DNA of 64,000 nt from Eledone cirrhosa (lineage: Eukaryota), in contig OZ024743.1 in NCBI GenBank assembly GCA_964016885.1, positions 177,258,001 to 177,322,000 of the forward strand. Reading direction: 5' to 3'. This document shows, piece by piece, positions 21,766-64,000 of this stretch; within the stretch, counting starts at the first letter, position 1, and the number at the start of each line of letters is the position of its first letter. The position numbers and the translations under genes are program-made. Below the pieces are notes generated by a model that was not told the DNA's origin, did no database searches, and saw only the letters and a program-made list of their open reading frames with translations.

Positions 21766-22744
21766 TTAATAATAACGATGATGATGATCATCATGCTAAT
21801 GACGATTTCTTTATTAACCACAAAGTCCAGAATGACACCATGTGGCTTTACACGAAAACGTGTAAAAAAGGTGAAATATCAAACGCAAAAACAAAAAGAA
21901 ATTTCCCGAATAAGGGAAACCTCCTTACCATTCAGTAGTTGTACTGTGTTACTACTTCTGTCAACTATTTCTGAAGAAGAACGGCTGGAGGATAATTCAT
22001 GATATCTTCCGCTCCGTCGGAACTGTGTTGGATTAAACAACAACACTGCTGTTATGAAAATTATCAAACCTATCATTACCATCAATACGAAAGAGTCCCC
22101 GGTGAAAAAAGTCTCACACAGGCATTCTACCTGCTAGAAATAACAGATAAACCTCTCTAAAATGATAACCTACCGTTACCGGAAGGAAACGACACACTGA
22201 ACAATTAATATCGAGATAGACACCTCAGTTTCTCAGTCAGTCTTGGTTTATGTGTAAACAACTACAACATCATATTTCTTGTTCTTATAATTTTATCAAA
22301 ATATTAATGAGAATAATTAAACAAAGATTAATCACTTTAAATCAAGTTTAATTCACATTCAAATAAAATATTATACAATTATATAAATCCACTATAACAA
22401 GGACACATTAGAACTAAATAAATGTAAATATGAATTCTATATATATTTCTTATTTGATTTATACATTTAGCTTATTGGTTTGCAAGTAAACAAGTAAACA
22501 ATAATTATATTGAAGATAATGAGAGTGTACTTAATACTACGAGAAAAACATATGTAAATAATTAATGATATTTAATAGAAACAAAAGATCAATGAATATT
22601 AATTTAATCTAAATAGAAGTAATATATATTCATAAACTGTTGTCGTTTTACATGACTTTTTATGATGAAGATTTGTAGTTCAGAAACATACACAGATTAT
22701 ATTTGTGATAATGATAATGATATTATTAGTTATTATTATTATTA

Positions 22745-23690
22745 AGGCGGTGGATTGGCAGTATCGGACACCATGCTTTGCAGCATATAGTTACGGCCCT
22801 TTCTGATTTGAGTTCAAATCCCGCCGAGGTTAACTTTGCCTTTCAGGCTCACGGGGTCGATAAAATAAAGTACCAGTAACGTCCTGGGGTTGATTTAATC
22901 GACTTTACCCTCCCTCCAAATTTGCTGGCCTTGTGCCTATATAAGAAACCATTATTATTATTTAAAGACTTTGCCTTTCATCCTTACGAGGTCGATAAAA
23001 TAAAGTACCAGTAATGCACTGGTAATTGCTGGCCTTGTGCCAAATGTAGAAACAATTATTTAAAGGTGGTAGAGCGGTGGATTGGAAGTATAGGTAGAGA
23101 GTTGGACAATATACTTTGCAGCATAGAGTTTACGACCTTTTACATTCTAAGTTCGAATCCCGCCTAAATAAGCGTTGCCTTTCATCCCTACGTAGACGAT
23201 AGAATAAAGTACCAATAACGCAATGGGGTCGATTTAATCAACTTTCCCCTCCCCCAAAATTGTTGGTCTTGTTCCTAAATCAGAAACCATTATTAACATT
23301 TCAGGGTGGTAAAGGTGGTGATTTGGCAGTGTCCGTAGCGGGTCGGACGCCATGATTTGAAGCATAGAGTTACGCCTCTTTACGGTCTGAGTTCAAATCC
23401 CGCCGAGGTTAACTTTGCCTCTCATCCTTACGGTGTCGATAAATTAAAGTACCAGTAATGCACTGTGATAATTGCTGGCTTTGTGCCAAAAGTAGAAATT
23501 ATTCTTTAAGGGTGGTGGATTGCCAGTATTCGTAGAGCATCGGAAAACATTCTTTGCGGTATATAGTTACAACCCTGTACGTCATCAGTTCAAATTCCGC
23601 CTTTCCTTCTTACGGGGACGATTCAATAAATTACCAGCAACGCACTGGGGGCGATTTAATCGGATTTCTCCTACCTCACATTATTATTAT
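22745..23690 (+). mobile_element. Head-to-tail cluster of five tRNA-SINE copies (one 5'-truncated)
   Basis: Heads at ~22745, 23065, 23305 and 23510, partial copy at 22968; all on the + strand. Confidence 0.85.
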
Positions 23691-24566
23691 TATTATTGTT
23701 ATAATTATTTGTAGTAGTAAATATTTAGTGGCATCATCATTTGCTGGTTGTTGCAATTTTCCGTGTAGAAAAAAAAATCTTTGCGATTATACATGTAAAA
23801 TCATAACAACTAGAACCAGCAGGCCTCGACGTCGGAGACGACAAGCACCCCGACGAAATTACCTTCTTCCTATTCGAAGGAGGTAATTCCCTCATCTGGA
23901 CACATTCTCCGCCTACAACTTAGTCGCCTCGGCCACAGACCCCAGTACTGCAGCTCACAATGCAGAGGACAGGAAGACATGAAAACACCAGAGTTTGTCC
24001 GGCCGCTTCCTCTTCGTACCGGTTACCATCGAGACTTCAGGCGTCCTCGGACCCCTTACTGCCTAGCTCCACCTTAAAATCGGAACGTTAACAGCCCGTC
24101 TGAGGAAAAAACCCTGCGAGGTGGGGGTAGCTGTTGCAGCGGGTGTTGGCTATTATTCGCGGAAATGCTTTTGTAGTTTTGACCCTGGGATGCAACCCAA
24201 ACACAGCACCACCCTAGTCTTAGAGACATCACCCTCTCCCTTCCCTTTCCTTTCTTCTGTGGCCGCACAGTCCTCACTTTTCCCTCCTTTTCCTCTCATT
24301 TATGGCATTTATAGCCCTTTCTCCTTTTGTCATACACAGTCATATCTGCTTTTCTTTACCCCTCCACGCTATGTTTGTTGATTGGTTTTGTTATCATATT
24401 TCCATCAATATTTGCAATGTTATTCATACAACTGTGAATTGAATTATTGTCTGTAATTCTATTAAGTTATAAAATCAATCTTAATTTATAGTAAAAATTT
24501 TAAAAACATATTCACAAATTTAAAAGTTAATAATAATCGTGCCGAAAAAACCTGTCAAATTAAAAT

Positions 24567-24746
24567 AATTGTTTCTATTTTTGGCACAAGGCCAGCAATT
24601 ATCCCTGTGCATTACTGGTACTTTATTTTATCGACCCCGTAAGGATGAAAGGCAAAGTTAACCTCGGCGGAATTTGAACTAAGACCGTAAAGGGGCGTAA
24701 ATCTATGATGCAAAGCATCACTCCGACCCTCTACCGATACTGCCAA
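24567..24746 (-). mobile_element. tRNA-SINE copy
   Basis: Closely similar to 5719-5902. Confidence 0.85.
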
Positions 24747-25161: not shown

Positions 25162-25393
25162 CTGTATATATTTCTTCCGTATCCAGAGGCTAAGAGGCAA
25201 TTTAGACTATTTTTCATAATCAAAAACATTGAAGCTAATAACTTTGAAATTCATTATTTTGATATATGTTTCAGTATACCGACTCTAATCTTTCAGGTCG
25301 AATCACAACTCCCAAGAAAATCTTTCCTAATATATATATATAGAGAGAGAGATGGAAAAAATGAAATTTCATTTCTCACTCTTAGTACGGCTG

Positions 25394-25959
25394 ATATAAG
25401 TATGTATACGTACATACATATATGTATATAGACGTACAGTAGTATGTATATACATACATACATGCACACATATATATATATATGTACGTATGGGTTTACC
25501 CAACATTTATTATAATGTTCGGTTTGTTTGTAAACAAACAGCCCGAATTAAGCCGTACAGTGTTCGGCAACTATCGTTTCCCTTTTGTTCAACACTGACA
25601 AAGGAACGATGCCTAACTCATTCGATATTCAAATTAGGCTACTCAGCCGTTAATATGCATAAGGAAAGTATATACTTTCAAACGTTCAATCGATTGGTAG
25701 GAAGGTATACGGTGCTGATGACAGCTAAGAAGCTAGAAACTAGTTCATCGTTCCTTTGTCAGTGTTGAACAAAAGGGCAACGATGGTCGCCGAACACTGT
25801 ACGGCTTAATTCGGGCTGTTTGTTTACAAACAAACTGAACATTATAATAAATGTTCAGTAAACCCATACGTACATATATATATGTGTGCATGTATGTATG
25901 TATATACATACTAGTCTACGTCTGTATACATATATGTATGTATGTATACATACTTATAT
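25394..25959. mobile_element. Head-to-head inverted HHR element (arms 25394-25611 and 25746-25959)
   Basis: ~215-bp reverse-complement arms ending in TA-rich microsatellite; 134-bp unique centre contains the HHR core. Confidence 0.88.
25709..25751 (+). ncRNA. Minimal type I hammerhead ribozyme
   Basis: ACGGTG-CTGATGA-CAGCTAAGAAGCTA-GAAAC-TA-GTT-CATCGT; 6-bp stem I, palindromic stem III AACTAGTT, GUU site. Confidence 0.82.
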
Positions 25960-26119
25960 ATATATATAAGAATATATATATATATATATGTGTGTGTGTG
26001 TAAAAGGTAAACAGAAATAACAACACAATCGGTACAGTATATGGAAGGAATATATTAGGTTAACGCTTGAACTAGCAGGAATATATATACTAATTTTTTT
26101 ATTTTATATTACGAAAAAA

Positions 26120-26387: not shown

Positions 26388-26941
26388 GATAACAAGTTAT
26401 CGTTATAGGTAATCTTGTTAGAGGTTGTGAGTGCTCTGCGTCGGGGATAGTTTTAACGTACGGCTTTTTTTGACTCAACAAGATGCTTCCATAGTTATGC
26501 AGCGAGTTCGCGGTAATTTCTATTGGAGTAATAATAGTTAAAGAATTAAGATTAACAAGTACTGACAATTGTTTCGTTGATCATGTGGGTCCAGAGTTCG
26601 CTAATCGCTTGAGGTTGCCAATCTCCAATACATTATTCACCTCTAGTCAACACATCAGAGTACGTAGATATGAAAGTAATTCACTCGAGGCAAGACTTAT
26701 ATAGAAAAATAGCGTATAATTAAAACAATAACATCAATAATAAAATAGCGTATAATCTAAACAATAAGATCAATAATAATACATGTATGGTAAAGAGGTA
26801 GAGAAGTTACAGATGTAAAAAGTAAAACTAAAAGTAAAATATAAGATAGGGTACATTAAAAAGTAAGAAAAAGAGAGAATGGAAAATATAAAGAGATAAA
26901 CAAATAAATAGGCTTCCTTCTCCATTGTTTGAGACGAGGAA

Positions 26942-27370
26942 GGGTGGCGGATCGGCATTACAGGTAGAGCGCCGAACAATATGTTTTGAGACATATAGCT
27001 ACGTTCTGAGTTCAAATCCCACCGATGTTAGCTTTACTTTTAATCCTTACAGGTTCGATAAAAATAAAATACCAGTAACGCACTGGAGACCATTTAATCG
27101 ACTTTCTACTCCCCACCTAATCGTTGGGCTGGTGCCTAAATCAGAGACCATTATTATTGAAGACCTTAGGGCGGGGGTTTGGCAGTATCGGTAGAGCGTC
27201 AGTCAACATGCGTTGCGGCATATAGTTACGTTCCTTTACGTTCTGAGTTCAAATCCCGCCGAGATTAGCTTTGACTTTCATCCTTACAGAGTCAATAAAA
27301 ATAAAATACCAGTAACTCAAATGATTTTTCCACCCGCAAAAATTGTGGCCTTGTGTCTAAATTAGATTTC
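26942..27370 (+). mobile_element. Two tandem tRNA-SINE copies
   Basis: A/B boxes and family core at 26942-27152 and 27170-27365. Confidence 0.8.
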
Positions 27371-27575
27371 ATCCTTATTAAAGACCTTCCTTCTTTAAAT
27401 TTAAATATCTGATCGTTATGTTTTGAAGCACAGCAGGAATTCGTTTGATCTTTTGGTTGTGTTCTTGTAAAAGTCTTTAGCACTCTTTGATAGTTGTGAG
27501 AATTTGAACGGAGATAAGTCAATGACAGAGGAATCCAATGGTATCACCGCTTTTGAAATCATCTTTATTCCTTAA

Positions 27576-30794: not shown

Positions 30795-32897
30795 TACAGA
30801 AACAACACCTGAATATTTCTACAAAGAACATACCCGTACCTAGCAGGAAGACATATTTAAAACTTCTTATACAAAAGACGGATTCGTTCCTTAAAAGGTT
30901 GCGTTTGCACCTTTTATTTCGATAACCAGGAAAAAGCGGACAATAAACAGGATAAATTTGGGTTTAAAACTTATAATAGCCCTCAGAGTAACCCAACCTT
31001 GTTACCTTTCGAAAACGATGTCTTGGAACTCATACGGAGTATCAGATTTCGGAACAGGAGCAATTCCTTCCAACAGCCTGAAGAATAGAATTCGTTCTAA
31101 TGCCGTGCAAGTCCACTCCGACAAAACTGGTAATCTATATCTAGTGGAGCGCAGTACATACCATCACCTGGTACATAATGCTGTAACCAAGGATTATGGA
31201 AAAACGATCGGAGTGTCATTAATGACATCAAGGATGCTGGGTTTAAAATCATTTCAGAACTCAACATCTAGGACCGGACCGAACCTCTGGACCCTATTTC
31301 ACTCCACTTTTCCCTGAAGGATCACAAACCCAATTTCGCTAACAACCCTTCTATTCGGCTAATTAACCGTACGAAGTCTGATTTAGGTAGACTTAGTAAA
31401 AGGGAATTTAGATAGTATTATACCTGAAATTAGAAGCTTGGCACCTCTTGCACTCTTGAATAATTCTTTCGCGGTGATTGATTGGTTTAATGGCATATGC
31501 AACAAGGAATATTGCCGTTTTATCTAATTTGACATCAACAACTACTACTCCTCCATCACTTTACCACTTCTTCTTAGAGCTATCAATTTCGCTAAAACAC
31601 TCACGGTCGTTAAGGATTTAGAAGTTGATGTCAACCTCAATGCCCGTAAGTTGGTGATTAATTGTGACGGCGCTATTTGGATAAAACATCTAATAGTACC
31701 CCATTCTACGTGAGTAAGGGCGCCAACGATTCGGCGGAGGTTACAGATCTTATCGGCTTTTTCCTTCTTTTCTCTATCAAGGAAGTATTGCCTAATGTAG
31801 ACGGAGGCTTGTACCGCGACGACAGACCATGACAAAGTGCGAGCCCCCGCTTGTGACAGATTTAGAAAAGAACTCACAGCTTTCTTTAAAGGCTTCAACC
31901 TCTCTATACAAATTGAGACCAACCTTTCGGTCGTAAACTACCTCGACGTTACCCTCAATTTGTCGAATGGCTTGCACTACCCGTATAGAAAGCCAAATGA
32001 TACGCTTAATTACATCAGTAAGCATTCTAACCATCCTGCCAGCATAACCAAGAACCTCGTAAAAAACATTTCTTTGAGGCGTTCTCGTCTATCTACAAAC
32101 GAGTATATTTTCACCGACCATTCCACATATTACAATGAAGCTCTTGCTCGGAGTGGATTTGTCGATAAGGTAGCATATACTAAGTATGAGCATAAACCTA
32201 GGAAAAAAAGACCCCGACGCATTATATGGTATAAACTACCATATAATATGGAGGTGGTCACACCATTAGCTAAAATCTTTCTCTGCCTTATTAAGAAGCA
32301 TTTCCCCTCAGCACATAAATATAATAACATTTTAAATAGAAATACCGTTAAAATATCTTACTTCACGATCCCTACCTTTGCACATAACATCACTGCTTCA
32401 AATTTAGCTAAATTACCTAGCCGTAGTAACACATGCAACCCTGTAGCTAGTACTAACTGTAATTGTAGGAATCGGGTTGACTGCCCCCTATCCGGGAAAT
32501 GCCTCTCGAGTAACATTGTCTACAAATGTAAGGTCGACATCCACACGTCTAGTAGGGCCTACATACGGTTAATCGCAATAGTTTCAAGCAGCATCTTTAC
32601 ATGCACACACATTCTTTTCTTAACCCTTTAAGAAGGAACATGCCGTCACTTTCAGCTTATATCTGGAGTCTAATAGACAACCACACACAATATAGGTTAC
32701 ACTGGGAGATCCTAGCTGAAGCTAGATCGTATAACGGAAATAAATGGCCATGCGTTCTTTGCGCTGCCGAAGCCCTGGAAATAATCTACGCCAATGATCA
32801 CACCTTAAACAAAATATCTGAGGCAACTTCGGGTTGTAAACACAAATTGCATATAACCTTCCTGTATTACAGCTCCACATTATACCCTAACGGATAG
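30795..32897 (+). mobile_element. Near full-length degenerate Penelope-like retroelement (RT + C-terminal GIY-YIG endonuclease); possibly Hydra clade
   Basis: N-terminal [17 protein letters not shown]; DKTGNLY; RT GLYRDD; VNYLDVTLNL, PYRKPND..NYI...SNHP; IIWY..PY; CNCR....CPL.GKCL..NIVYKC; YIW, W.IL, C.LC..E, LNK.SE..S.CKH; several frameshifts and stops. Confidence 0.9.
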
Positions 32898-37326: not shown

Positions 37327-38200
<874 letters not shown>

Positions 38201-49036: not shown

Positions 49037-49530
49037 AATATGGTTTAATAAATATAGTTTCCATTTATTAATATCGTATATATATATATGTATATACAAG
49101 TGAAAAGAGGGTATGTTTAGGGAGTCATACAATGCAAGTGGGTTGTAGATTTATCAAAGCAACAAGCTGGAATGAAATTAAGGGAGGTGTAGTAGAAGTT
49201 AATATGTGTGAGAGGGGGGGGGGAGATAACTGAATGTAACCTTACTAATTTATTAGTTCGAATCTGTTATGGATTTACCATTCGTTATCAACAGGGTGTC
49301 CGTATTATTGGGGTAGATTAGATGGGGAGGTTGTGCTCTTCAGAGAAATCAGAGAGTGTTTTTCTGGGGTCTGCTTAATATTTTCAAATTTCGTAATCTA
49401 AAAAATAAGCAGGGACCAGGAATCTTTGACAAACGACTTCTTGTATGGCTTCCTAAATATAGAAACTTTTCACTTATATAAGAGAGGAATTTACAAAATA
49501 GATGTGCCAAACAAAAATAGATTGTATGTG

Positions 49531-52500
49531 GTTCATGTGGAGAATATTTTGCATATTGTCAGATCTTATGAAAGTGGAATTCATGTAGAGAATGTGTTGC
49601 ATATTGTCAGATCTTATGAAAGTGGGATTCATGTGGAGAATGTTTTCCATATTATCAGATGTTATGAAAGTGGGATTCATGTGGAGAATGTTTTCCATAT
49701 TGTCAGATCTTATGAAAGTGGGATTCATGTGGAGAATGTTTTCCATATTGTCAGATCTTATGAAAGTGGGATTCATGTGGAGAATGTTTTGCATATTGTC
49801 AGATGTTATGAAAGTGGGATTCATGTGGAGAATGTTTTGCATATTGTCAGATGTTATGAAAGTGGGATTCATGTGGAGAATGTTTTCCATATTGTCAGAT
49901 GTTATGAAAGTGGGATTCATGTGGAGAATGTTTTCCATATTGTCAGATGTTATGAAAGTGGGATTCATGTGGAGAATGTTTTCCATATTGTCAGATCTTA
50001 TGAAAGTGGGATTCATGTGGAGAATGTTTTGCATATTGTCAGATGTTATGAAAGTGGGATTCATGTGGAGAATGTTTTGCATATTGTCAGATGTTATGAA
50101 AGTGGGATTCATGTGGAGAATGTTTTCCATATTGTCAGATGTTATGAAAGTGGGATTCATGTGGAGAATGTTTTCCATATTGTCAGATCTTATGAAAGTG
50201 GGATTCATGTGGAGAATGTTTTGCATATTGTCAGATGTTATGAAAGTGGGATTCATGTGGAGAATGTTTTCCATATTGTCAGATCTTATGAAAGTGGGAT
50301 TGATGTGGAGAATGTTTTGCATAATGTCAGATGTTATGAAAGTGGGATTGATGTGGAGAATGTTTTGCATATTGTTAGATGTTATGAAAGTGGGATTCAT
50401 GTGGAGAATATTTTCCATATTGTCAGATGTTATGAAAGTGGGATTCATGTGGAGAATGCTTTCCATATTGTCAGACGTTATGAAAGTGGGATTGATGTGG
50501 AGAATGTTTTGCATATTGTCAGATGTTATGAAAGTGGGATTCATGTGGAGAATGTTTCCCATTTTGTCAGATGTTATGAAAGTGGGATTCATGTGGAGAA
50601 TGATTTCCATATTGTCAGATCTTATGAAAGTGGGATTGATGTGGAGAATTTTTTGCATATTGTCAGATCTTATGAAAGTGGGATTCATGTGGAGAATGTT
50701 TACCATATTGTCAGATGTTATGAAAGTGGGATTAATGTGGAGAATGTTTTATATATTGTCAGATGTTATGAAAGTGGGATTCATGTGGAGAATGTTTTCC
50801 ATATTGTGAGATCTTATGAAAGTGGCATTCATGTGGAAGATGTTTTGCATATTGTCAGATGTTGTGAAAGTGGGATTCATGTGGAGAATGTTTTCCATAT
50901 TGTCAGATCTTATGAAAGTGGAATTCATGTAGAGAATGTGTTGCATATTGTCAGATCTTATGAAAGTGGGATTCATGTGGAGAATGTTTTCCATATTATC
51001 AGATGTTATGAAAGTGGGATTCATGTGGAGAATGTTTTCCATATTGTCAGATCTTATGAAAGTGGGATTCATGTGGAGAATGTTTTCCATATTGTCAGAT
51101 CTTATGAAAGTGGGATTCATGTGGAGAATGTTTTGCATATTGTCAGATGTTATGAAAGTGGGATTCATGTGGAGAATGTTTTGCATATTGTCAGATGTTA
51201 TGAAAGTGGGATTCATGTGGAGAATGTTTTCCATATTGTCAGATGTTATGAAAGTGGGATTCATGTGGAGAATGTTTTCCATATTGTCAGATGTTATGAA
51301 AGTGGGATTCATGTGGAGAATGTTTTCCATATTGTCAGATCTTATGAAAGTGGGATTGATGTGGAGAATGTTTTGCATAATGTCAGATGTTATGAAAGTG
51401 GGATTGATGTGGAGAATGTTTTGCATATTGTTAGATGTTATGAAAGTGGGATTCATGTGGAGAATATTTTCCATATTGTCAGATGTTATGAAAGTGGGAT
51501 TCATGTGGAGAATGCTTTCCATATTGTCAGACGTTATGAAAGTGGGATTGATGTGGAGAATGTTTTGCATATTGTCAGATGTTATGAAAGTGGGATTCAT
51601 GTGGAGAATGTTTCCCATTTTGTCAGATGTTATGAAAGTGGGATTCATGTGGAGAATGATTTCCATATTGTCAGATCTTATGAAAGTGGGATTGATGTGG
51701 AGAATTTTTTGCATATTGTCAGATCTTATGAAAGTGGGATTCATGTGGAGAATGTTTACCATATTGTCAGATGTTATGAAAGTGGGATTAATGTGGAGAA
51801 TGTTTTATATATTGTCAGATGTTATGAAAGTGGGATTCATGTGGAGAATGTTTTCCATATTGTGAGATCTTATGAAAGTGGCATTCATGTGGAAGATGTT
51901 TTGCATATTGTCAGATGTTGTGAAAGTGGGATTCATGTGGAGAATGTTTTCCATATTGTCAGATCTTATGAAAGTGGGATTCATGTGGAGAATGATTTCC
52001 ATATTGTCAGATGTTATGAAAGTGGGATTCATGTGGAGAATGTTTTGCATATTGTCAGATGTTGTGAAAGTGGGATTCATGTGGAGAATGTTTTCCATAT
52101 TGTCAGATGTTATGAAAGTGGGATTCATGTGGAGAATGTTTTCCATATTGTCAGATGTTATGAAAGTGGGATTCATGTGGAGAATGTTTTCCATAATGTC
52201 AGATGTTATGAAAGTGGGATTCATGTGGAGAATGTTTTCCATATTGTCAAATGTTATGAAAGTGGGATTCATGTGGAGAATGTTTTCCATATTGTCAGAT
52301 GTTATGAAAGTGGGATTCATGTGGAGAATGTTTTGCATATTGTCAGATGTTATGAAAGTGGGATTCATGTGGAGAATGTTTTACATATTGTCAGATGTTA
52401 TGAAAGTGGGATTCATGTGGAGAATGTTTTCCATATTGTCAGATCTTATGAAAGTGGGATTCATGTGGAGAATGTTTTGCATATTGTCAGATGTTATGAA

Positions 52501-55500
52501 AGTGGGATTCATGTGGAGAATGTTTTCCATATTGTCAGATCTTATGAAAGTGGGATTCATGTGGAGAATGTTTTGCATATTGTCAGATGTTATGAAAGTG
52601 GGATTCATGTGGAGAAGGTTTTCTATATTGTCAGATCTTATGAAAGTGGGATTCATGTGGAGAATATTTTGCATATTGTCAGATGTTATGAAAGTGGGAT
52701 GCATGTGGAGAATGTTTTCCATGTTGTCAGATCTGATGAAAGTGGGATTCATGTGGAGAATATTTTCCATATTGTCAGATCTTATGAGAGTGGGATTCAT
52801 GTGGAGAATGTTTTACACATTGTCAGATCTTATGAAAGTGGGATTCACGTGGAGAATGTTTTCCATATTGTCAGATCTTATGAAAGTGGGATTCATGTGG
52901 AGAATGTTTTCCATATTGTCAGATCTTATGAAAGTGGGATTCATGTGGAGAATGTTTTGCATATTGTCCCATGTTATGAAAGTGGGATTCATGTGGAGAA
53001 TGTTTTCCATATTGTCAGATCTTATGAAAGTGGGATTGATGTGGAGAATGTTTTGCATAATGTCAGATGTTATGAAAGTGGGATTGATGTGGAGAATGTT
53101 TTGCATATTGTTAGATGTTATGAAAGTGGGATTCATGTGGAGAATGTTTTCCATATTGTCAGATATTATGAAAGTGGGATTCATGTGGAGAATGTTTTCC
53201 ATATTGTCAGATGTTATGAAAGTGGGATTGATGTGGAGAAGGTTTTGCATATTGTCAGATGTTATGAAAGTGGGATTCATGTGGAGAATGTTTTCCATAT
53301 TGTCAGATCTTATGAAAGTGGGATTCATGTGGAGAATGTTTTGCATATTGGCAGATGTTATGAAAGTGGGATTCATGTGGAGAATGTTTTCCATATTGTC
53401 AGATCTTATGAAAGTGGGATTCATGTGGAGAATGTTTTGCATATTGTCAGATGTTATGAAAGTGGGATTCATGTGGAGAAGGTTTTCCATATTGTCAGAT
53501 CTTATGAAAGTGGGATTCATGTGGAGAAAATTTTGCATATTGTCAGATGTTATGAAAGTGGGATGCATGTGGAGAATGTTTTCCATGTTGTCAGATCTGA
53601 TGAAAGTGGGATTCATGTGGAGAATGTTTTCCATATTGTCAGATCTTATGAGAGTGGGATTCATGTGGAGAATGTTTTACACATTGTCAGATCTTATGAA
53701 AGTGGGATTCATGTGGAGAATGTTTTCCATATTGTCAGATCTTATGAAAGTGGGATTCATGTGGAGAATGTTTTCCATATTGTCAGATCTTATGAAAGTG
53801 GGATTCATGTGGAGAATGTTTTGCATATTGTCCCATGTTATGAAAGTGGGATTCATGTGGAGAATGTTTTCCATATTGTCAGATCTTATGAAAGTGGGAT
53901 TGATGTGGAGAATGTTTTGCATAATGTCAGATGTTATGAAAGTGGGATTGATGTGGAGAATGTTTTGCATATTGTTAGATGTTATGAAAGTGGGATTCAT
54001 GTGGAGAATGTTTTCCATATTGTCAGATATTATGAAAGTGGGATTCATGTGGAGAATGTTTTCCATATTGTCAGATGTTATGAAAGTGGGATTGATGTGG
54101 AGAATGTTTTGCATATTGTCAGATGTTATGAAAGTGTGATTCATGTGGAGAATGTTTTCCATATTGTCAGATGTTATGAAAGTGGGATTCATGTGGAGAA
54201 TGCTTTCCATATTGTCAGACGTTATGAAAGTGGGATTGATGTGGAGAATGTTTTGCATATTGTCAGATGTTATGAAAGTGGGATTCATGTGGAGAATGTT
54301 TCCCATTTTATCAGATGTTATGAAAGTGGGATTCATGTGGAGAATGATTTCCATATTGTCAGATCTTATGAAAGTGGGATTGATGTGGAGGATTTTTTGC
54401 ATATTGTCAGATCTTATGAAAGTGGGATTCATGTGGAGAATGTTTTCCATATTGTCAGATGTTATGAAAGTGGGATTCATTTGGAGAATGTTTTCCATAT
54501 TGTGAGATCTTATGAAAGTGGCATTCATGTGGAAGATGTTTTGCATATTGTCAGATGTTGTGAAAGTGGGATTCATGTGGAGAATGTTTTCCATATTGTC
54601 AGATCTTATGAAAGTGGGATTCATGTGGAGAATGATTTCCATATTGTCAGATGTTATGAAAGTGGGATTCATGTGGAAAATGTTTTACATATTGTCAGAT
54701 GTTATGAAAGTGGGATTCATGTGGAGAATGAGTTCCATATTGTCAGATGTTATGAAAGTGGGATTAATGTGGAGAATGTTTTGCATATTGTCAGATGTTA
54801 TGAAAGAGGGATTCACGTGGAGAATGTTTTCCATATTGTCAGATGTTATGAAAGTGGGATTGATGTGGAGAATGTTTTGCATGTTGTCAGATGTTATGAA
54901 AGTGGGATTCATGTGGAGAATGTTTTCCATATTGTCAGATGTTATGAAGGTGGGATTGATGTGGAGAATGTTCTGCATATTGTCAGATGTTATGAAAGTG
55001 GGATTCATGTGGAGAAAGATTTCCATATTGTCATATCTTATGAAAGTGGGATTCATGTGGAGAATGTTTTACATATTGTCAGATGTTATGAAAGTGGGAT
55101 TCATGTGGAAAATGTTTTCCATATTGTCAGATGTTATGAAAGTGGGATTCATGTGGAGAATGTTTTGCATATTGTCAGATCTTATGAAAGTGGGATGCAT
55201 GTGGAGAATGTTTTCCATGTTGTCAGATCTGATGAAAGTGGGATTCATGTGGAGAATGTTTTCCATATTGTCAGATCTTATGAGAGTGGGATTCATGTGG
55301 AGAATGTTTTACACATTGTCAGATCTTATGAAAGTGGGATTCATGTGGAGAATGTTTTCCATATTGTCAGATCTTATGAAAGTGGGATTCATGTGGAGAA
55401 TGTTTTCCATATTGTCAGATCTTATGAAAGTGGGATTCATGTGGAGAATGTTTTGCATATTGTCCCATGTTATGAAAGTGGGATTCATGTGGAGAATGTT

Positions 55501-58500
55501 TTCCATATTGTCAGATCTTATGAAAGTGGGATTGATGTGGAGAATGTTTTGCATAATGTCAGATGTTATGAAAGTGGGATTGATGTGGAGAATGTTTTGC
55601 ATATTGTTAGATGTTATGAAAGTGGGATTCATGTGGAGAATGTTTTCCATATTGTCAGATATTATGAAAGTGGGATTCATGTGGAGAATGTTTTCCATAT
55701 TGTCAGATGTTATGAAAGTGGGATTGATGTGGAGAATGTTTTGCATATTGTCAGATGTTATGAAAGTGTGATTCATGTGGAGAATGTTTTCCATATTGTC
55801 AGATGTTATGAAAGTGGGATTCATGTGGAGAATGCTTTCCATATTGTCAGACGTTATGAAAGTGGGATTGATGTGGAGAATGTTTTGCATATTGTCAGAT
55901 GTTATGAAAGTGGGATTCATGTGGAGAATGTTTCCCATTTTATCAGATGTTATGAAAGTGGGATTCATGTGGAGAATGTTTTGCATATTGTTAGATGTTA
56001 TGAAAGTGGGATTCATGTGGAGAATGTTTTCCATATTGTCAGATATTATGAAAGTGGGATTCATGTGGAGAATGTTTTCCATATTGTCAGATGTTATGAA
56101 AGTGGGATTGATGTGGAGAAGGTTTTGCATATTGTCAGATGTTATGAAAGTGGGATTCATGTGGAGAATGTTTTCCATATTGTCAGATCTTATGAAAGTG
56201 GGATTCATGTGGAGAATGTTTTGCATATTGGCAGATGTTATGAAAGTGGGATTCATGTGGAGAATGTTTTCCATATTGTCAGATCTTATGAAAGTGGGAT
56301 TCATGTGGAGAATGTTTTGCATATTGTCAGATGTTATGAAAGTGGGATTCATGTGGAGAAGGTTTTCCATATTGTCAGATCTTATGAAAGTGGGATTCAT
56401 GTGGAGAAAATTTTGCATATTGTCAGATGTTATGAAAGTGGGATGCATGTGGAGAATGTTTTCCATGTTGTCAGATCTGATGAAAGTGGGATTGATGTGG
56501 AGAATGTTCTGCATATTGTCAGATGTTATGAAAGTGGGATTCATGTGGAGAAAGATTTCCATATTGTCATATCTTATGAAAGTGGGATTCATGTGGAGAA
56601 TGTTTTACATATTGTCAGATGTTATGAAAGTGGGATTCATGTGGAAAATGTTTTCCATATTGTCAGATGTTATGAAAGTGGGATTCATGTGGAGAATGTT
56701 TTGCATATTGTCAGATCTTATGAAAGTGGGATTGATGTGGAGAATGTTTTGCATATTGTCAGATGTTATGAAAGTGGGATTCATGTGGAGAATGTTTCCC
56801 ATTTTATCAGATGTTATGAAAGTGGGATTCATGTGGAGAATGTTTTGCATATTGTTAGATGTTATGAAAGTGGGATTCATGTGGAGAATGTTTTCCATAT
56901 TGTCAGATATTATGAAAGTGGGATTCATGTGGAGAATGTTTTCCATATTGTCAGATGTTATGAAAGTGGGATTGATGTGGAGAAGGTTTTGCATATTGTC
57001 AGATGTTATGAAAGTGGGATTCATGTGGAGAATGTTTTCCATATTGTCAGATCTTATGAAAGTGGGATTCATGTGGAGAATGTTTTGCATATTGGCAGAT
57101 GTTATGAAAGTGGGATTCATGTGGAGAATGTTTTCCATATTGTCAGATCTTATGAAAGTGGGATTCATGTGGAGAATGTTTTGCATATTGTCAGATGTTA
57201 TGAAAGTGGGATTCATGTGGAGAAGGTTTTCCATATTGTCAGATCTTATGAAAGTGGGATTCATGTGGAGAAAATTTTGCATATTGTCAGATGTTATGAA
57301 AGTGGGATGCATGTGGAGAATGTTTTCCATGTTGTCAGATCTGATGAAAGTGGGATTGATGTGGAGAATGTTCTGCATATTGTCAGATGTTATGAAAGTG
57401 GGATTCATGTGGAGAAAGATTTCCATATTGTCATATCTTATGAAAGTGGGATTCATGTGGAGAATGTTTTACATATTGTCAGATGTTATGAAAGTGGGAT
57501 TCATGTGGAAAATGTTTTCCATATTGTCAGATGTTATGAAAGTGGGATTCATGTGGAGAATGTTTTGCATATTGTCAGATCTTATGAAAGTGGGATTCAT
57601 GTGGAGAATGTTTTCCATATTGTCAGATGTTATGAAAGTGGGATTCCTGTGGAGAATGTTTTCCATATTGTCAGATCTTATGAAAGTGGGATTCATGTGG
57701 AGAATGTTTTTCATATTATCAGATGTTATGAAAGTGGGATTCATGTGGAGAATGTTTTCCATATTGTCAGATCTTATGAAAGTGGGATTCATGTGGAGAA
57801 TGTTTTGCATATTGTCAGATGTTATGAAAGTGGGATTCATGTGGAGAAGGTTTTCCATATTGTCAGATCTTATGAAAGTGGGATTCATGTGGAGAATATT
57901 TTGCATATTGTCAGATGTTAAGAAAGTGGGATGCATGTGGAGAATGTTTTCCATGTTGTCAGATCTGATGAAAGTGGGATTCATGTGGAGAATGTTTTCC
58001 ATATTGTCAGATCTTATGAGAGTGGGATTCATGTGGAGAATGTTTTGCATATTGTCAGATGTTATGAAAGTGGGATTCATGTGGAGAATGTTTTCCATAT
58101 TGTCAGATCTTATGAAAGTGGGATTCATGTGGAGAATGATTTCCATATTGTCAGATCTTATGAAAGTGGGATTCATGTGGAGAATGTTTTCCATATTGTC
58201 AGATCTTATGAAAGTGGGATTCATGTGGAGAATGTTTTGCATATTGTCCCATGTTATGAAAGTGGGATTCATGTGGAGAATGTTTTCCATATTGTCAGAT
58301 CTTATGAAAGTGGGATTGATGTGGAGAATGTTTTGCATAATGTCAGATGTTATGAAAGTGGGATTGATGTGGAGAATGTTTTGCATATTGTTAGATGTTA
58401 TGAAAGTGGGATTCATGTGGAGAATGTTTTCCATATTGTCAGATATTATGAAAGTGGGATTCATGTGGCGAATGTTTTCATATTGTCAGATGTTATGAAA

Positions 58501-61500
58501 GTGGGATTGATGTGGAGAATGTTTTGCATATTGTCAGATGTTATGAAAGTGGGATTCATGTGGAGAATGTTTTCCATATTGTCAGATGTTATGAAAGTGG
58601 GATTCATGTGGAGAATGCTTTCCATATTGTCAGACGTTATGAAAGTGGGATTGATGTGGAGAATGTTTTGCATATTGTCAGATGTTATGAAAGTGGGATT
58701 CATGTGGAGAATGTTTCCCATTTTATCAGATGTTATGAAAGTGGGATTCATGTGGAGAATGATTTCCATATTGTCAGATCTTATGAAAGTGGGATTGATG
58801 CGGAGAATTTTTTGCATATTGTCAGATCTTATGAAAGTGGGATTCATGTGGAGAATGTTTTCCATATTGTCAGATGTTATGAAAGTGGGATTAATGTGGA
58901 GAATGTTTTATATATTGTCAGATGTTATGAAAGTGGGATTCATGTGGAGAATGTTTTCCATATTGTGAGATCTTATAAAAGTGGCATTCATGTGGAAGAT
59001 GTTTTGCATATTGTCAGATGTTGTGAAAGTGGGATTCATGTGGAGAATGTTTTCCATATTGTCAGATGTTATGAAAGAGGGATTCACGTGGAGAATGTTT
59101 TCCATATTGTCAGATGTTATGAAAGTGGGATTGATGTGGAGAATGTTTTGCATATTGTCAGATGTTATGAAAGTGGGATTCATGTGGAGAATGTTTTCCA
59201 TATTGTCAGATGTTATGAAGGTGGGATTGATGTGGAGAATGTTCTGCATATTGTCAGATGTTATGAAAGTGGGATTCATGTGGAGAAAGATTTCCATATT
59301 GTCATATCTTATGAAAGTGGGATTCATGTGGAGAATGTTTTCCATATTGTCAGATGTTATGAAAGTGGGATTCATGTGGAAAATGTTTTCCATATTGTCA
59401 GATGTTATGAAAGTGGGATTCATGTGGAGAATGTTTTCCATATTGTCAGATCTTATGAAAGTGGGATTCATGTGGAGAATGTTTTCCATATTGTCAGATG
59501 TTATGAAAGTGGGATTCATGTGGAGAATGTTTTCCATATTGTCAGATCTTATGAAAGTGGGATTCATGTGGAGAATGTTTTCCATATTGTCAGATGTTAT
59601 GAAAGAGGTATTCACGTGGAGAATGTTTTCCATATTGTCAGATGTTATGAAAGTGGGATTGATGTGGAGAATGTTTTGCATATTATCAGATGTTATGAAA
59701 GTGGCATTCATGTGGAGAATGTTTTCCATATTGTCAGATCTTATGAAAGTGGGATTCACGTGTAGAATGTTTTGCTTATTGTCAGATGTTATGAAAGTGG
59801 GATTCATGTGGAGAATGTTTTCCATATTGTCAGATCTTATGAAAGTGGGATTCATGTGGAGAATGTTTTGCATATTGTCAGATGTTATGAAAGTGGGATT
59901 CATGTGGAGAATGTTTTCCATATTGTCAGATCTTATGAAAGTGGGATTCATGTGGAGAATGTTTTGCATATTGTCAGATGTTATGAAAGTGGGATTCATG
60001 TGGAGAAGGTTTTCCATATTGTCAGATCTTATGAAAGTGGGATTCATGTGGAGAATATTTTGCATATTGTCAGATGTTAAGAAAGTGGGATGCATGTGGA
60101 GAATGTTTTCCATGTTGTCAGATCTGATGAAAGTGGGATTCATGTGGAGAATGTTTTCCATATTGTCAGATCTTATGAGAGTGGGATTCATGTGGAGAAT
60201 GTTTTGCATATTGTCAGATGTTATGAAAGTGGGATTCATGTGGAGAATGTTTTCCATATTGTCAGATCTTATGAAAGTGGGATTCATGTGGAGAATGATT
60301 TCCATATTGTCAAATGTTATGAATGTGGGATTGATGTGGAGAATGTTTTCCATATTTTCAGATCTTATGAAAGTGGGATTAATGTGGAGAATGTTTTACA
60401 TATTGTCAGATGTTATGAAAGTGGGATTTATGTGGAGAATGTTTTACATATTGTCAGATGTTATGAAAGTGGGATTGATGTGGAGAATGTTTTGCATATT
60501 GTTAGATGTTATGAAAGTGGGATTCATGTGGAGAATGTTTTCCATATGGTCAGATATTATGAAAGTGGGTTTCATGTGGAGAATGTTTTCCATATTGTCA
60601 GATGTTATGAAAGTGGGATTGATGTGGAGAATGTCTTGCATATTGTCAGATGTTATGAAAGTGGGATTGATGTGGAGAATGCTTTGCATATTGTCAGATG
60701 TTATGAAAGTTGGATTCATGTGGAGAATGTTTTCCATATTGTCAGATGTTATGAAGGTGGGATTGATGTGGAGAATGTTTTGCATATTCTCATATCTTAT
60801 GAAAGTGGGATTCATGTGGAGAATGTTTTGCATATTGTCAGATCTTATGAAAGTGGAATTCATGTGGAGAATGATTTCCATATTGTCAGATCTTATGAAA
60901 GTGGGATTCATGTGGAAAATGTTTTACATATTGTCAGATGTTATGAAAGTGGGATTCATGTGGAGAATGAGTTCCATATTGTCAGATGTTATGAAAGTGG
61001 GATTAATGTGGAGAATGTTTTGCATATTGTCAGATGTTATGAAAGAGGGATTCACGTGGAGAATGTTTTCCATATTGTCAGATGTTATGAAAGTGGGATT
61101 GATGTGGAGAATGTTTTGCATATTGTCAGATGTTATGTAAGTGGGATTCATGTGGAGAATGTTTTCCATATTGTCAGATGTTATGAAGGTGGGATTGATG
61201 TGGAGAATGTTCTGCATATTGTCAGATGTTATGAAAGTGGGATTCATGTGGAGAAAGATTTCCATATTGTCATATCTTATGAAAGTGGGATTCATGTGGA
61301 GAATGTTTTCCATATTGTCAGATGTTATGAAAGTGGGATTGATGTGGAAAATGTTTTCCATATTGTCAGATGTTATGAAAGTGGGATTCATGTGGAGAAT
61401 GTTTTCCATATTGTCAGATCTTATGAAAGTGGGATTCATGTGGAGAATGTTTTCCATATTGTCAGATGTTATGAAAGTGGGATTCACGTGGAGAATGTTT

Positions 61501-64000
61501 TCCATATTGTCAGATCTTATGAAAGTGGGATTCATGTGGAGAATGTTTTCCATATTGTCAGATGTTATGAAAGTGGGATTCATGTGGAGAATGTTTTCCA
61601 TATTGTCAGATCTTATGAAAGTGGGATTCATGTGGAGAATGTTTTGCATATTATCAGATGTTATGAAAGTGGCATTCATGTGGAGAATGTTTTCCATATT
61701 GTCAGATCTTATGAAAGTGGGATTCATGTGTAGAATGTTTTGCTTATTGTCAGATGTTATGAAAGTGGGATTCATGTGGAGAATGTTTTCCATATTGTCA
61801 GATCTTATGAAAGTGGGATTCATGTGAAGAATGTTTTGCATATTGTCAGATGTTATGAAAGTGGGATTCATGTGGAGAATGTTTTCCATATTGTCAGATC
61901 TTATGAAAGTGGGATTCATGTGGAGAATGTTTTGCATATTGTCAGATGTTATGAAAGTGGGATTCATGTGGAGAAGGTTTTCCATATTGTCAGATCTTAT
62001 GAAAGTGGGATTCATGTGGAGAATATTTTGCATATTGTCAGATGTTAAGAAAGTGGGATGCATGTGGAGAATGTTTTCCATGTTGTCAGATCTGATGAAA
62101 GTGGGATTCATGTGGAGAATGTTTTCCATATTGTCAGATCTTATGAGAGTGGGATTCATGTGGAGAATGTTTTGCATATTGTCAGATCTTATGAAAGTGG
62201 GATTCATGTGGAGAATGTTTTGCATATTATCAGATGTTATGAAAGTGGCATTCATGTGGAGAATGTTTTCCATATTGTCAGATCTTATGAAAGTGGGATT
62301 CATGTGTAGAATGTTTTGCTTATTGTCAGATGTTATGAAAGTGGGATTGATGTGGAGAATGCTTTGCATATTGTCAGATGTTATGAAAGTTGGATTCATG
62401 TGGAGAATGTTTTCCATATTGTCAGATGTTATGAAGGTGGGATTGATGTGGAGAATGTTTTGCATATTGTCATATATTATGAAAGTGGGATTCATGTGGA
62501 GAATGTTTTGCATATTGTCAGATCTTATGAAAGTGGGATTCATGTGGAGAATGATTTCCATATTGTCAGATCTTATGAAAGTGGGATTCATGTGGAAAAT
62601 GTTTTACATATTGTCAGATGTTATGAAAGTGGGATTCATGTGGAGAATGAGTTCCATATTGTCAGATGTTATGAAAGTGGGATTAATGTGGAGAATGTTT
62701 TGCATATTGTCAGATGTTATGAAAGAGGGATTCACGTGGAGAATGTTTTCCATATTGTCAGATGTTATGAAAGTGGGATTGATGTGGAGAATGTTTTGCA
62801 TATTGTCAGATGTTATGAAAGTGGGATTCATGTGGAGAATGTTTTCCATATTGTCAGATGTTATGAAGGTGGGATTGATGTGGAGAATGTTCTGCATATT
62901 GTCAGATGTTATGAAAGTGGGATTCATGTGGAGAAAGATTTCCATATTGTCATATCTTATGAAAGTGGGATTCATGTGGAGAATGTTTTCCATATTGTCA
63001 GATGTTATGAAAGTGGGATTCATGTGGAAAATGTTTTCCATATTGTCAGATGTTATGAAAGTGGGATTCATGTGGAGAATGTTTTCCATATTGTCAGATG
63101 TTATGAAAGTGGGATTCACGTGGAGAATGTTTTCCATATTGTCAGATCTTATGAAAGTGGGATTCATGTGGAGAATGTTTTCCATATTGTCAGATGTTAT
63201 GAAAGTGGGATTCATGTGGAGAATGTTTTCCATATTGTCAGATCTTATGAAAGTGGGATTCATGTGGAGAATGTTTTGCATATTATCAGATGTTATGAAA
63301 GTGGCATTCATGTGGAGAATGTTTTCCATATTGTCAGATCTTATGAAAGTGGGATTCATGTGTAGAATGTTTTGCTTATTGTCAGATGTTATGAAAGTGG
63401 GATTCATGTGGAGAATGTTTTCCATATTGTCAGATCTTATGAAAGTGGGATTCATGTGAAGAATGTTTTGCATATTGTCAGATGTTATGAAACTGGGATT
63501 CATGTGGAGAATGTTTTCCATATTGTCAGATCTTATGAAAGTGGGATTCATGTGGAGAATGTTTTGCATATTGTCAGATGTTATGAAAGTGGGATTCATG
63601 TGGAGAAGGTTTTCCATATTGTCAGATCTTATGAAAGTGGGATTCATGTGGAGAATATTTTGCATATTGTCAGATGTTAAGAAAGTTGGATGCATGTGGA
63701 GAATGTTTTCCATCTTGTCAGATCTGATGAAAGTGGGATTCATGTGGAGAATGTTTTCCATATTGTCAGATCTTATGAGAGTGGGATTCATGTGGAGAAT
63801 GTTTTGCATATTGTCAGATGTTATGAAAGTGGGATTCATGTGGAGAATGTTTTCCATATTGTCAGATCTTATGAAAGTGGGATTCATGTGGAGAATGATT
63901 TCCATATTGTCAAATGTTATGAATGTGGGATTGATGTGGAGAATGTTTTCCATATTTTCAGATCTTATGAAAGTGGGATTAATGTGGAGAATGTTTTACA
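49531..64000. repeat. 48-bp tandem satellite, ~300 units, continuing past the window edge
   Basis: Consensus CATGTGGAGAATGTTTT(C/G)CATATTGTCAGAT(G/C)TTATGAAAGTGGGATT; substitutions only, except one 1-bp deletion near 58478. Confidence 0.98.

What the first reader, a model, noticed from the sequence alone, without database searches (positions are those of the whole stretch)
25394..25959. Inverted-duplication breakpoint coincides exactly with the ribozyme cleavage site
Seen: the HHR predicts cleavage after GUU at 25745, giving an RNA that starts CATCGTTCCTTTG. The left inverted arm ends at 25611 with ...AAAGGAACGATG, the reverse complement starting at that very base. Inference: the left arm is a cDNA copy of a self-cleaved RNA run to its 5' end, joined head-to-head to a second cDNA. 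This would be a genomic footprint of in vivo ribozyme activity and of two-ended insertion into TA-rich DNA.
Basis: partly seen in the sequence, partly recalled or inferred. Interest (0 to 1): 0.75.

Follow-up and report, generated by a model that had tools for sequence, protein, structure and literature searches.

The report
Ordinary head-to-head retrozyme insertion
This is one of thousands of copies of a 430-base jumping repeat that carries a hammerhead-ribozyme motif and sits as two head-to-head pieces, and because copies elsewhere in the genome break no more often at the predicted cut site than nearby, the match seen here is likely chance and not a record of the RNA cutting itself.

Summary
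The inverted arms, the hammerhead motif and the match of the left arm's end (25611) to the predicted cut (after 25745) are real. The inference drawn from the match is not supported. The insert is a copy of a ~428-nt tandem repeat with one type I hammerhead per unit (non-LTR retrozyme; 4,069 exact copies of one 19-mer). In a sample chosen without regard to 5' ends, 118 arms pass through the cut site 98 times and end within 6 nt of it twice, never at +1. Genome-wide, 20 of 3,590 copies break at +1/-1 (0.56%) against 0.40% at two matched control sites (risk ratio 1.4, 95% CI 0.8-2.5). A small excess is not excluded. The junction itself is uncertain by 1-2 bases. The two-ended part holds: 88 head-to-head against 4 tail-to-tail pairs, with fixed 3' ends, one long and one short in 42 of 49 pairs, the known Penelope-type 'tail on one end'. 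Templates were therefore mostly uncut or re-joined (circular) RNA (inferred). The scan has noted like elements before, in this genome and others.

The parts
25330..25351 (.). Left flank: TA then GA dinucleotide run against which the long 3' end of the left arm lies; no target-site duplication can be told
25352..25393 (-).
25394..25611 (-). Body of the left (inverted, 5'-truncated) arm, unit positions +1 to ~+217 counted from the predicted cut; holds no hammerhead core
25611..25613 (.). Head-to-head junction; G25611 fits either arm, C25612 fits neither as it stands
25613..25959 (+). Right arm: starts at unit position ~+296 (133 nt before the cut), runs through the hammerhead and the cut site, ends at the family's short 3' terminus (~+217)
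25702..25756 (+). Type I hammerhead motif: stem I (25709-14 with 25746-51, distal helix 25702-05 with 25753-56), core 25715-21, C.A mismatch 25722/25735, stem II 25723-26 with 25731-34, GAAA 25736-39, 2-bp palindromic stem III, GUU 25743-45; cut predicted after 25745, untested
   Evidence: read by hand; pairing across 248 copies
25960..25991 (.). Right flank: TA repeat against the short 3' end

Best explanation
The insert is two 5'-truncated copies of a ~428-nt hammerhead-bearing tandem repeat (a non-LTR retrozyme) joined head to head in a TA repeat, likely made by a borrowed Penelope-type enzyme copying uncut or re-joined RNA, and the left arm's stop at the predicted cut site is likely a chance truncation. 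Steps: (1, shown) the unit is tandem, has one hammerhead motif per unit and no long ORF, and has thousands of copies. (2, shown) insertions end at two fixed 3' points, about +217 and +273, usually one on each arm. (3, inferred from PMC11167929) these are the two internal reverse-transcription starts of a Penelope-like enzyme that cuts and extends both target strands. (4, shown) nearly all copies run through the cut site, so (5, inferred) the templates were uncut tandem transcripts or circles. (6, inferred) both cDNAs stop at scattered points and are joined through 0-3 nt of microhomology.
For: Unit and arrays: period 427-433 in a five-to-six-unit array; 4,069 and 8,295 exact copies of two motifs. 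118 arms sampled by the tail motif: 5' ends spread over the unit, none at +1, nearest +2 and +5; 98 passes through the cut. 109 partner arms of selected junctions: 1 within 2 nt of the cut, 1.3 expected. 64 inverted junctions near the site: 5 at +1 (window included), 6 at -5, 4 at +4, 4 at +8, 7-11 at +9 to +11. Matched patterns: 20 of 3,590 at +1/-1 against 9 of ~2,937 and 13 of ~2,546; pooled risk ratio 1.39 (0.76-2.54), p 0.34; 1.25 (0.67-2.33) without the window and one of a palindromic pair. Architecture: 88 head-to-head and 4 tail-to-tail; 42 of 49 pairs long+short (about 24 expected if drawn independently); TA repeat beyond 103 of 131 3' ends; arms of a pair differ at 4.6% of subfamily sites, random pairs at 45%. 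RT + GIY-YIG ORFs exist in the genome. The same architecture is described for Penelope-like elements (PMC8557442, PMC3846280, passages).
Against: Against the unmatched -10/-11 control, which is dominated by other subfamilies, the cut site is higher: 20 of 3,590 against 48 of 19,716, risk ratio 2.3 (1.4-3.9), p 0.003. The point estimates against matched controls are above 1 for one of two sites (1.64 and 0.98). Three separate loci share one junction of +1..+3 with +13. No autonomous partner with the same terminal sequence was found in 46 GIY-YIG loci. Control denominators for the matched test are estimates from 55 copies. The 118-arm sample comes from the first 55 Mb of one contig.
Confidence: 0.8

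Rival explanations
1. The left arm is a run-off cDNA of an RNA that the hammerhead had cut. Such events would be a small minority in the family, and this copy one of them.
For: The match at the site is real. The hammerhead core is intact and pairs across copies. Risk ratios of 1.25-1.39 against matched controls and 2.3 against one unmatched control leave room for a small excess. In R2 elements ribozyme cleavage does set the RNA 5' end and junction type (PMC3774820, abstract).
Against: No significant peak in three samples; at least 98 of 100 passes read through; junction uncertain by 1-2 nt; in the anole Penelope element uncut RNA was the main substrate and no RNA reads began or ended at the site (PMC11167929, main text parts 1-2). 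With 0.24 ends per 100 nt and thousands of copies, some ends at +1 are expected.
Confidence: 0.15
2. The inverted arm arose at the DNA level after insertion (fold-back or inverted duplication of one copy), or by self-priming on an antisense template as proposed for rotifer Penelope elements.
For: Arms belong to the same subfamily; some junctions in the family are near-perfect fold-backs (L137, L138); self-priming on an antisense template is proposed in PMC3846280 (passages).
Against: The left arm carries a tail that the right arm lacks and the flanks are not duplicated; the spacer is 134 nt of element sequence, not a palindrome; both outer ends fall on the two family termini in most pairs, which a random DNA event would not give.
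Confidence: 0.05

Closest known systems
Animal non-LTR retrozymes (Cervera and de la Pena 2020, PMC7229834; parts 2-4 of 6 read)
   Same: Short low-GC tandem units (150-450 bp there, ~428 here), one type I hammerhead per unit, thousands of copies, no LTR or ORF, Penelope-like elements in the same genome. A mismatch at the base of stem II (U.U) is described for axolotl HHR_Amex2; here U.U in 159 and C.A in 77 of 248 copies.
   Different: Here most copies are dispersed, 5'-truncated, head-to-head pairs with a one-sided tail; the parts I read do not describe that architecture. Transcription, cleavage and circles are shown there and untested here.
Insertion units of endonuclease-positive Penelope-like elements (PMC8557442 passages; PMC3846280 passages; PMC11167929 parts 1-2 of 4)
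   Same: Inverted 5'-truncated copy next to the 5' end, partial tandems, tail at one end only, TA-repeat targets, two fixed 3' ends matching two RT starts, reading through the hammerhead.
   Different: No ORF; tail ~56 nt rather than 30-40 nt (some Penelope-like loci here show ~69-nt repeats); the partner element is not identified.
R2 retrotransposon HDV-like ribozyme (PMC3774820, abstract and section list only)
   Different: In R2 the ribozyme marks the element's 5' end; here about 99% of copies run through the site.

Membership tests
Type I hammerhead ribozyme | Core CUGANGA ... GAAA ... UH with stems I-III | tested here: met
   across 248 copies core positions 232-248 conserved (copies were picked by likeness to this region, so partly built in); position 17 is A in 141, U in 104; stem I pair -34:+3 is GU 137, UG 45, AU 44
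Type I hammerhead ribozyme | G10.1-C11.1 pair at the base of stem II | tested here: not met
   U.U 159, C.A 77 of 248; the window copy has C.A. U.U is known from an active axolotl variant (PMC7229834); I saw no precedent for C.A
Type I hammerhead ribozyme | Match to an Rfam hammerhead model / stable predicted fold | tested here: not met
   no hammerhead family listed; other folds preferred, z about -0.5; the 2-bp palindromic stem III suggests work as a dimer (inferred)
Type I hammerhead ribozyme | Self-cleavage after the triplet | not testable with these tools
   Needs in vitro transcription of monomer and dimer
Non-LTR retrozyme | Short tandem units, one hammerhead each, non-coding, many copies | tested here: met
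   no ORF of 150 codons over the insert
Non-LTR retrozyme | Expressed as linear and circular monomer RNA | not testable with these tools
   No RNA run was listed for this stretch, which says nothing on expression
Penelope-mobilised insertion | Inverted 5'-truncated copy, tail at one end, TA-repeat target | tested here: met
Penelope-mobilised insertion | An autonomous RT + GIY-YIG element sharing the terminal sequence | tested here: inconclusive
   RT and GIY-YIG ORFs exist; in 46 of 150 listed loci no shared terminal sequence, only 16-21-nt or TA-rich matches and two retrozyme copies lying beside such ORFs
Ribozyme-defined 5' junction (R2-like) | 5' ends of genomic copies pile up at the cleavage site | tested here: not met

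The most novel reading that the evidence does not exclude
Each head-to-head insert is made in one step by a Penelope enzyme dimer that primes both target strands at two fixed starts (+217 and +273) on one ribozyme-made circular RNA and rolls through the re-joined cut; a small share of cDNAs, this left arm among them, instead run off linear RNA freshly cut by the hammerhead and leave a faint (up to about 2-fold) genomic trace of cleavage in vivo.
Probability: 0.15. Interest if true: 0.55.

Novelty: new member of a known kind. Interest (0 to 1): 0.2.

Why it matters
The headline claim fails, so the locus itself is ordinary. What the family adds is modest: counts that fit the published proposal that animal retrozymes are moved by Penelope-type enzymes (one long and one short 3' end in 42 of 49 pairs) and that the copied RNA is uncut or circular (98 passes through the cut, 2 stops near it). 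Searches for retrozyme + head-to-head + Penelope and for six breakpoint-related terms together listed no paper; searches listed none whose title or abstract start describes this count. The library lacks most subscription papers, and supplements were not read.

Tried and rejected
Rfam scans gave no hammerhead call; single-strand folds did not adopt it. A first pattern for 'not U before the cut' (1,610 matches) turned out to pick up a GUA subfamily, not breakpoints: none of its 30 fetched loci broke at +1. Raw counts at two control sites (65 and 56 against 28) first looked like a deficit at the cut; exact denominators removed that reading, and subfamily matching was needed. A cluster of 5' ends at +72 to +84 in the first 30 loci was not a clear peak in the 118-arm sample. 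The peak at +121 to +140 (19 of 118) lies where the TA-rich part of the unit starts and may be an alignment or microhomology effect; not resolved. Search for the autonomous partner among 46 GIY-YIG loci found none. Shared rare variants (16 of 215 in head-to-head pairs, 7 from one locus; 37 of 409 in tandem neighbours; 68 of 8,672 at random) show kinship of arms but cannot tell one circular template from a tandem precursor. A look-up of earlier findings by sequence gave nothing.

Full report
Observation. The region holds an inverted repeat with arms 25394-25611 and 25746-25959, 93.6% alike over 218 nt. The 134-nt spacer ends in a hammerhead motif: CUGAUGA at 25715-25721, stem II with a C.A mismatch at its base, GAAA at 25736-25739, a 2-bp palindromic stem III and GUU at 25743-25745 (read by hand). 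The left arm's match stops at the base that mirrors 25746. Positions below count from the predicted cut (+1 = 25746).

The hammerhead. Rfam lists no match at gathering score in the window and no hammerhead family among 87 matches to E=10 around the locus; three single-strand folds prefer other structures. Support comes from the family: in 248 distinct copies of the region (picked by at least 42 of 60 identity and one exact core block, so conservation is partly built in) stem I pairs hold in 218-241, a distal stem I helix in 203-232, stem II in 234-241, stem III in 238-244; pair -34:+3 is GU 137, UG 45, AU 44; the base before the cut is A 141, U 104; the base of stem II is U.U 159, C.A 77. It reads as a type I hammerhead that probably needs a dimer (inferred from the short palindromic stem III; PMC4209133 part 2 of 4, PMC7229834 part 3 of 6). 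Cleavage is untested.

The element. A search of the own genome gave 3,303 candidates, 40 scored, best copies 95-96% identical. The unit closes on itself with period 427-433 in an array of five to six units. One 19-mer has 4,069 exact copies, a tail motif 8,295, a core motif shared with related subfamilies 19,716. This meets the sequence features of animal non-LTR retrozymes (PMC7229834, parts 2-4 of 6). In the window the left arm covers +1 to about +269 on the minus strand (25352-25611) and the right arm runs from about +296 through the cut to +217.

Two-ended insertion. Among 217 loci chosen by ribozyme-side motifs there are 88 head-to-head and 4 tail-to-tail pairs; 49 of the 88 have both outer ends on a family terminus (39 have one or both elsewhere and were left out), and of these 42 have one long (+272/273) and one short (+216/217) end, 5 two long, 2 two short; about 24 mixed pairs would be expected from independent draws. 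A TA repeat lies within 20 nt beyond 103 of 131 such ends. A tail-selected sample agrees: 24 of 26, with 18 of 44 pairs left out; the two samples share some loci. Arms of a pair differ at 4.6% of 21 subfamily sites, as at invariant sites (5.4%), while random pairs differ at 45%. This is the architecture described for Penelope-like elements: inverted 5'-truncated copy, tail often at one end, TA targets (PMC8557442 and PMC3846280, passages). In the anole element the tail lies between two internal RT starts, the protein cuts and extends both strands, uncut RNA is the main substrate and no RNA reads ended at the hammerhead site (PMC11167929, parts 1-2 of 4). The genome holds RT + GIY-YIG ORFs (10,596 candidates, 150 scored; RT and GIY-YIG domains in 2 of 3 ORFs scanned, RT alone in the third), five of 46 loci with a hammerhead-like motif that also has U.U at the base of stem II. 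None of the 46 shares terminal sequence with this unit, so the partner is inferred, not found. A 2026 preprint argues that animal retrozymes derive from Penelope terminal repeats (10.64898/2026.07.22.740005, part 1 of 5 and passages).

Test 1, unbiased arms. The first 100 tail-motif places (contig C1) gave 147 distinct arms; 118 end on a family terminus (29 left out). Their 5' ends cover the whole unit; none is at +1, the nearest are +2 and +5; they pass through the cut 98 times; the mean rate is 0.24 ends per 100 nt.

Test 2, ends close to the site. Of 4,069 copies with +11..+29 exact, 101 have non-family bases at -8..-10; 100 were analysed. 64 are inverted junctions: 5 begin at +1 (the window and one with long microhomology included), 0 at -1, 6 at -5, 3 at -7, 4 at +4, 4 at +8, 9, 7 and 11 at +9, +10, +11. 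The other 36 rows are flank junctions, direct jumps and small indels. No peak at +1.

Test 3, matched patterns. Copies exact at +1..+18 (3,590) with non-family bases at -2 and -10: 28, of which 20 are breaks and 8 point changes or small indels. The same design at -10/-11 gave 65 of 19,716 and at -18/-19 56 of 7,978. I fetched 55 of the 65 and 45 of the 56; the other 10 and 11 were set aside by eye from the printed match as point changes, small indels, internal deletions or a duplicate. Breaks: 48 and 38 (one search printed 47 and 35 because its duplicate filter also removed pure TA flanks and one chance match; I restored these four). Limited to copies exact at +1..+18: 9 of ~2,937 and 13 of ~2,546 (denominators scaled from 45 of 55 and 39 of 55). 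Pooled: 0.56% against 0.40%, risk ratio 1.39 (0.76-2.54), p 0.34; without the window and one of a palindromic pair 1.25 (0.67-2.33). Against my reading: the unmatched -10/-11 control gives 2.29 (1.36-3.85), p 0.003; it is dominated by other subfamilies. The unmatched -18/-19 control gives 1.17, p 0.57. The partner arms of the selected junctions (109) have 1 end within 2 nt of the cut, 1.3 expected.

The junction. The family reads G-A-C-T at the place where the window reads G-C-C-T (25611-25614). G25611 therefore fits either arm, and if C25612 was once A it also fits -1 of the left arm. The arms have since diverged by about 6%, so such a change is ordinary. The end lies between -1 and +2.

Verdict. 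About 99% of copies run through the cut site, so the templates were uncut tandem transcripts or re-joined circles (inferred; the DNA cannot tell which). With thousands of copies and 0.24 ends per 100 nt, some ends at +1 are expected, and a scan of many windows will pick one. A small true excess is not excluded; a risk ratio of 1.3 would give this copy about one chance in four of being a run-off product, and I put it at 0.15. R2 elements are the known case in which ribozyme cleavage shapes genomic 5' junctions (PMC3774820, abstract); this family does not behave so. It is a new member of a known kind. Earlier notes of this scan describe like elements in this genome and others; they are unchecked and were used as leads only. 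Supplements of the papers were not read and could hold breakpoint maps.

Noticed in passing
family positions +8 to +16 (window 25753-25761); 5' ends seem more frequent just 3' of the hammerhead's distal stem I: 27 of 64 inverted junctions at +9 to +11, and 10 of 109 partner ends at +8 to +16 (2.3 expected, post hoc, coupled sample). The 118-arm sample has only 2 there (2.5 expected). Could be an RT stop at the foot of a folded, uncut ribozyme or T-run microhomology.
   Followed up: partly
L335, L346, L354: Three loci on three contigs, of two subfamilies, share one inverted junction: one arm begins at +1..+3, the other at +13, joined through 2-3 nt of microhomology.
   Followed up: partly
L190:1170-3621: Array of five to six units in which GUU and GUA triplets are mixed, so not copied from one uniform monomer unless changed later.
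   Followed up: no
L357:1247-2051: Palindromic structure with two copies starting at +1 behind the same flank and another palindromic element in the middle; likely one event duplicated at DNA level.
   Followed up: partly
G000 C1, places: Related subfamilies share the hammerhead core (19,716 exact matches) and some form arrays with longer periods (about 465-510).
   Followed up: no
L318, L322, L323, L326, L332: A Penelope-like family with a CxxC motif before GIY-YIG carries a hammerhead-like motif a few hundred bases after the ORF, with U.U at the base of stem II.
   Followed up: partly
window 49532-63997: Satellite of 48-nt units (TRF period 96 and 144, 93% matches) with open frames on both strands, the longest 2,839 codons at 49402-57918; the first 333 residues have no Pfam match over cut-off.
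   Followed up: partly
window 31801-32628 (+): 276-codon open frame that looks, from recall, like the C-terminal part of a Penelope-type RT; no Pfam match at E 0.01.
   Followed up: partly
window 22733-23678, 24563-24718, 26941-27380: Several copies of a SINE-like repeat with a tRNA-like head (label recalled, not tested), in both orientations.
   Followed up: no
window 37475-38181: Three weak matches (69-78%) to the unit, mostly its TA-rich part; may be an old relative or low-complexity look-alikes.
   Followed up: no
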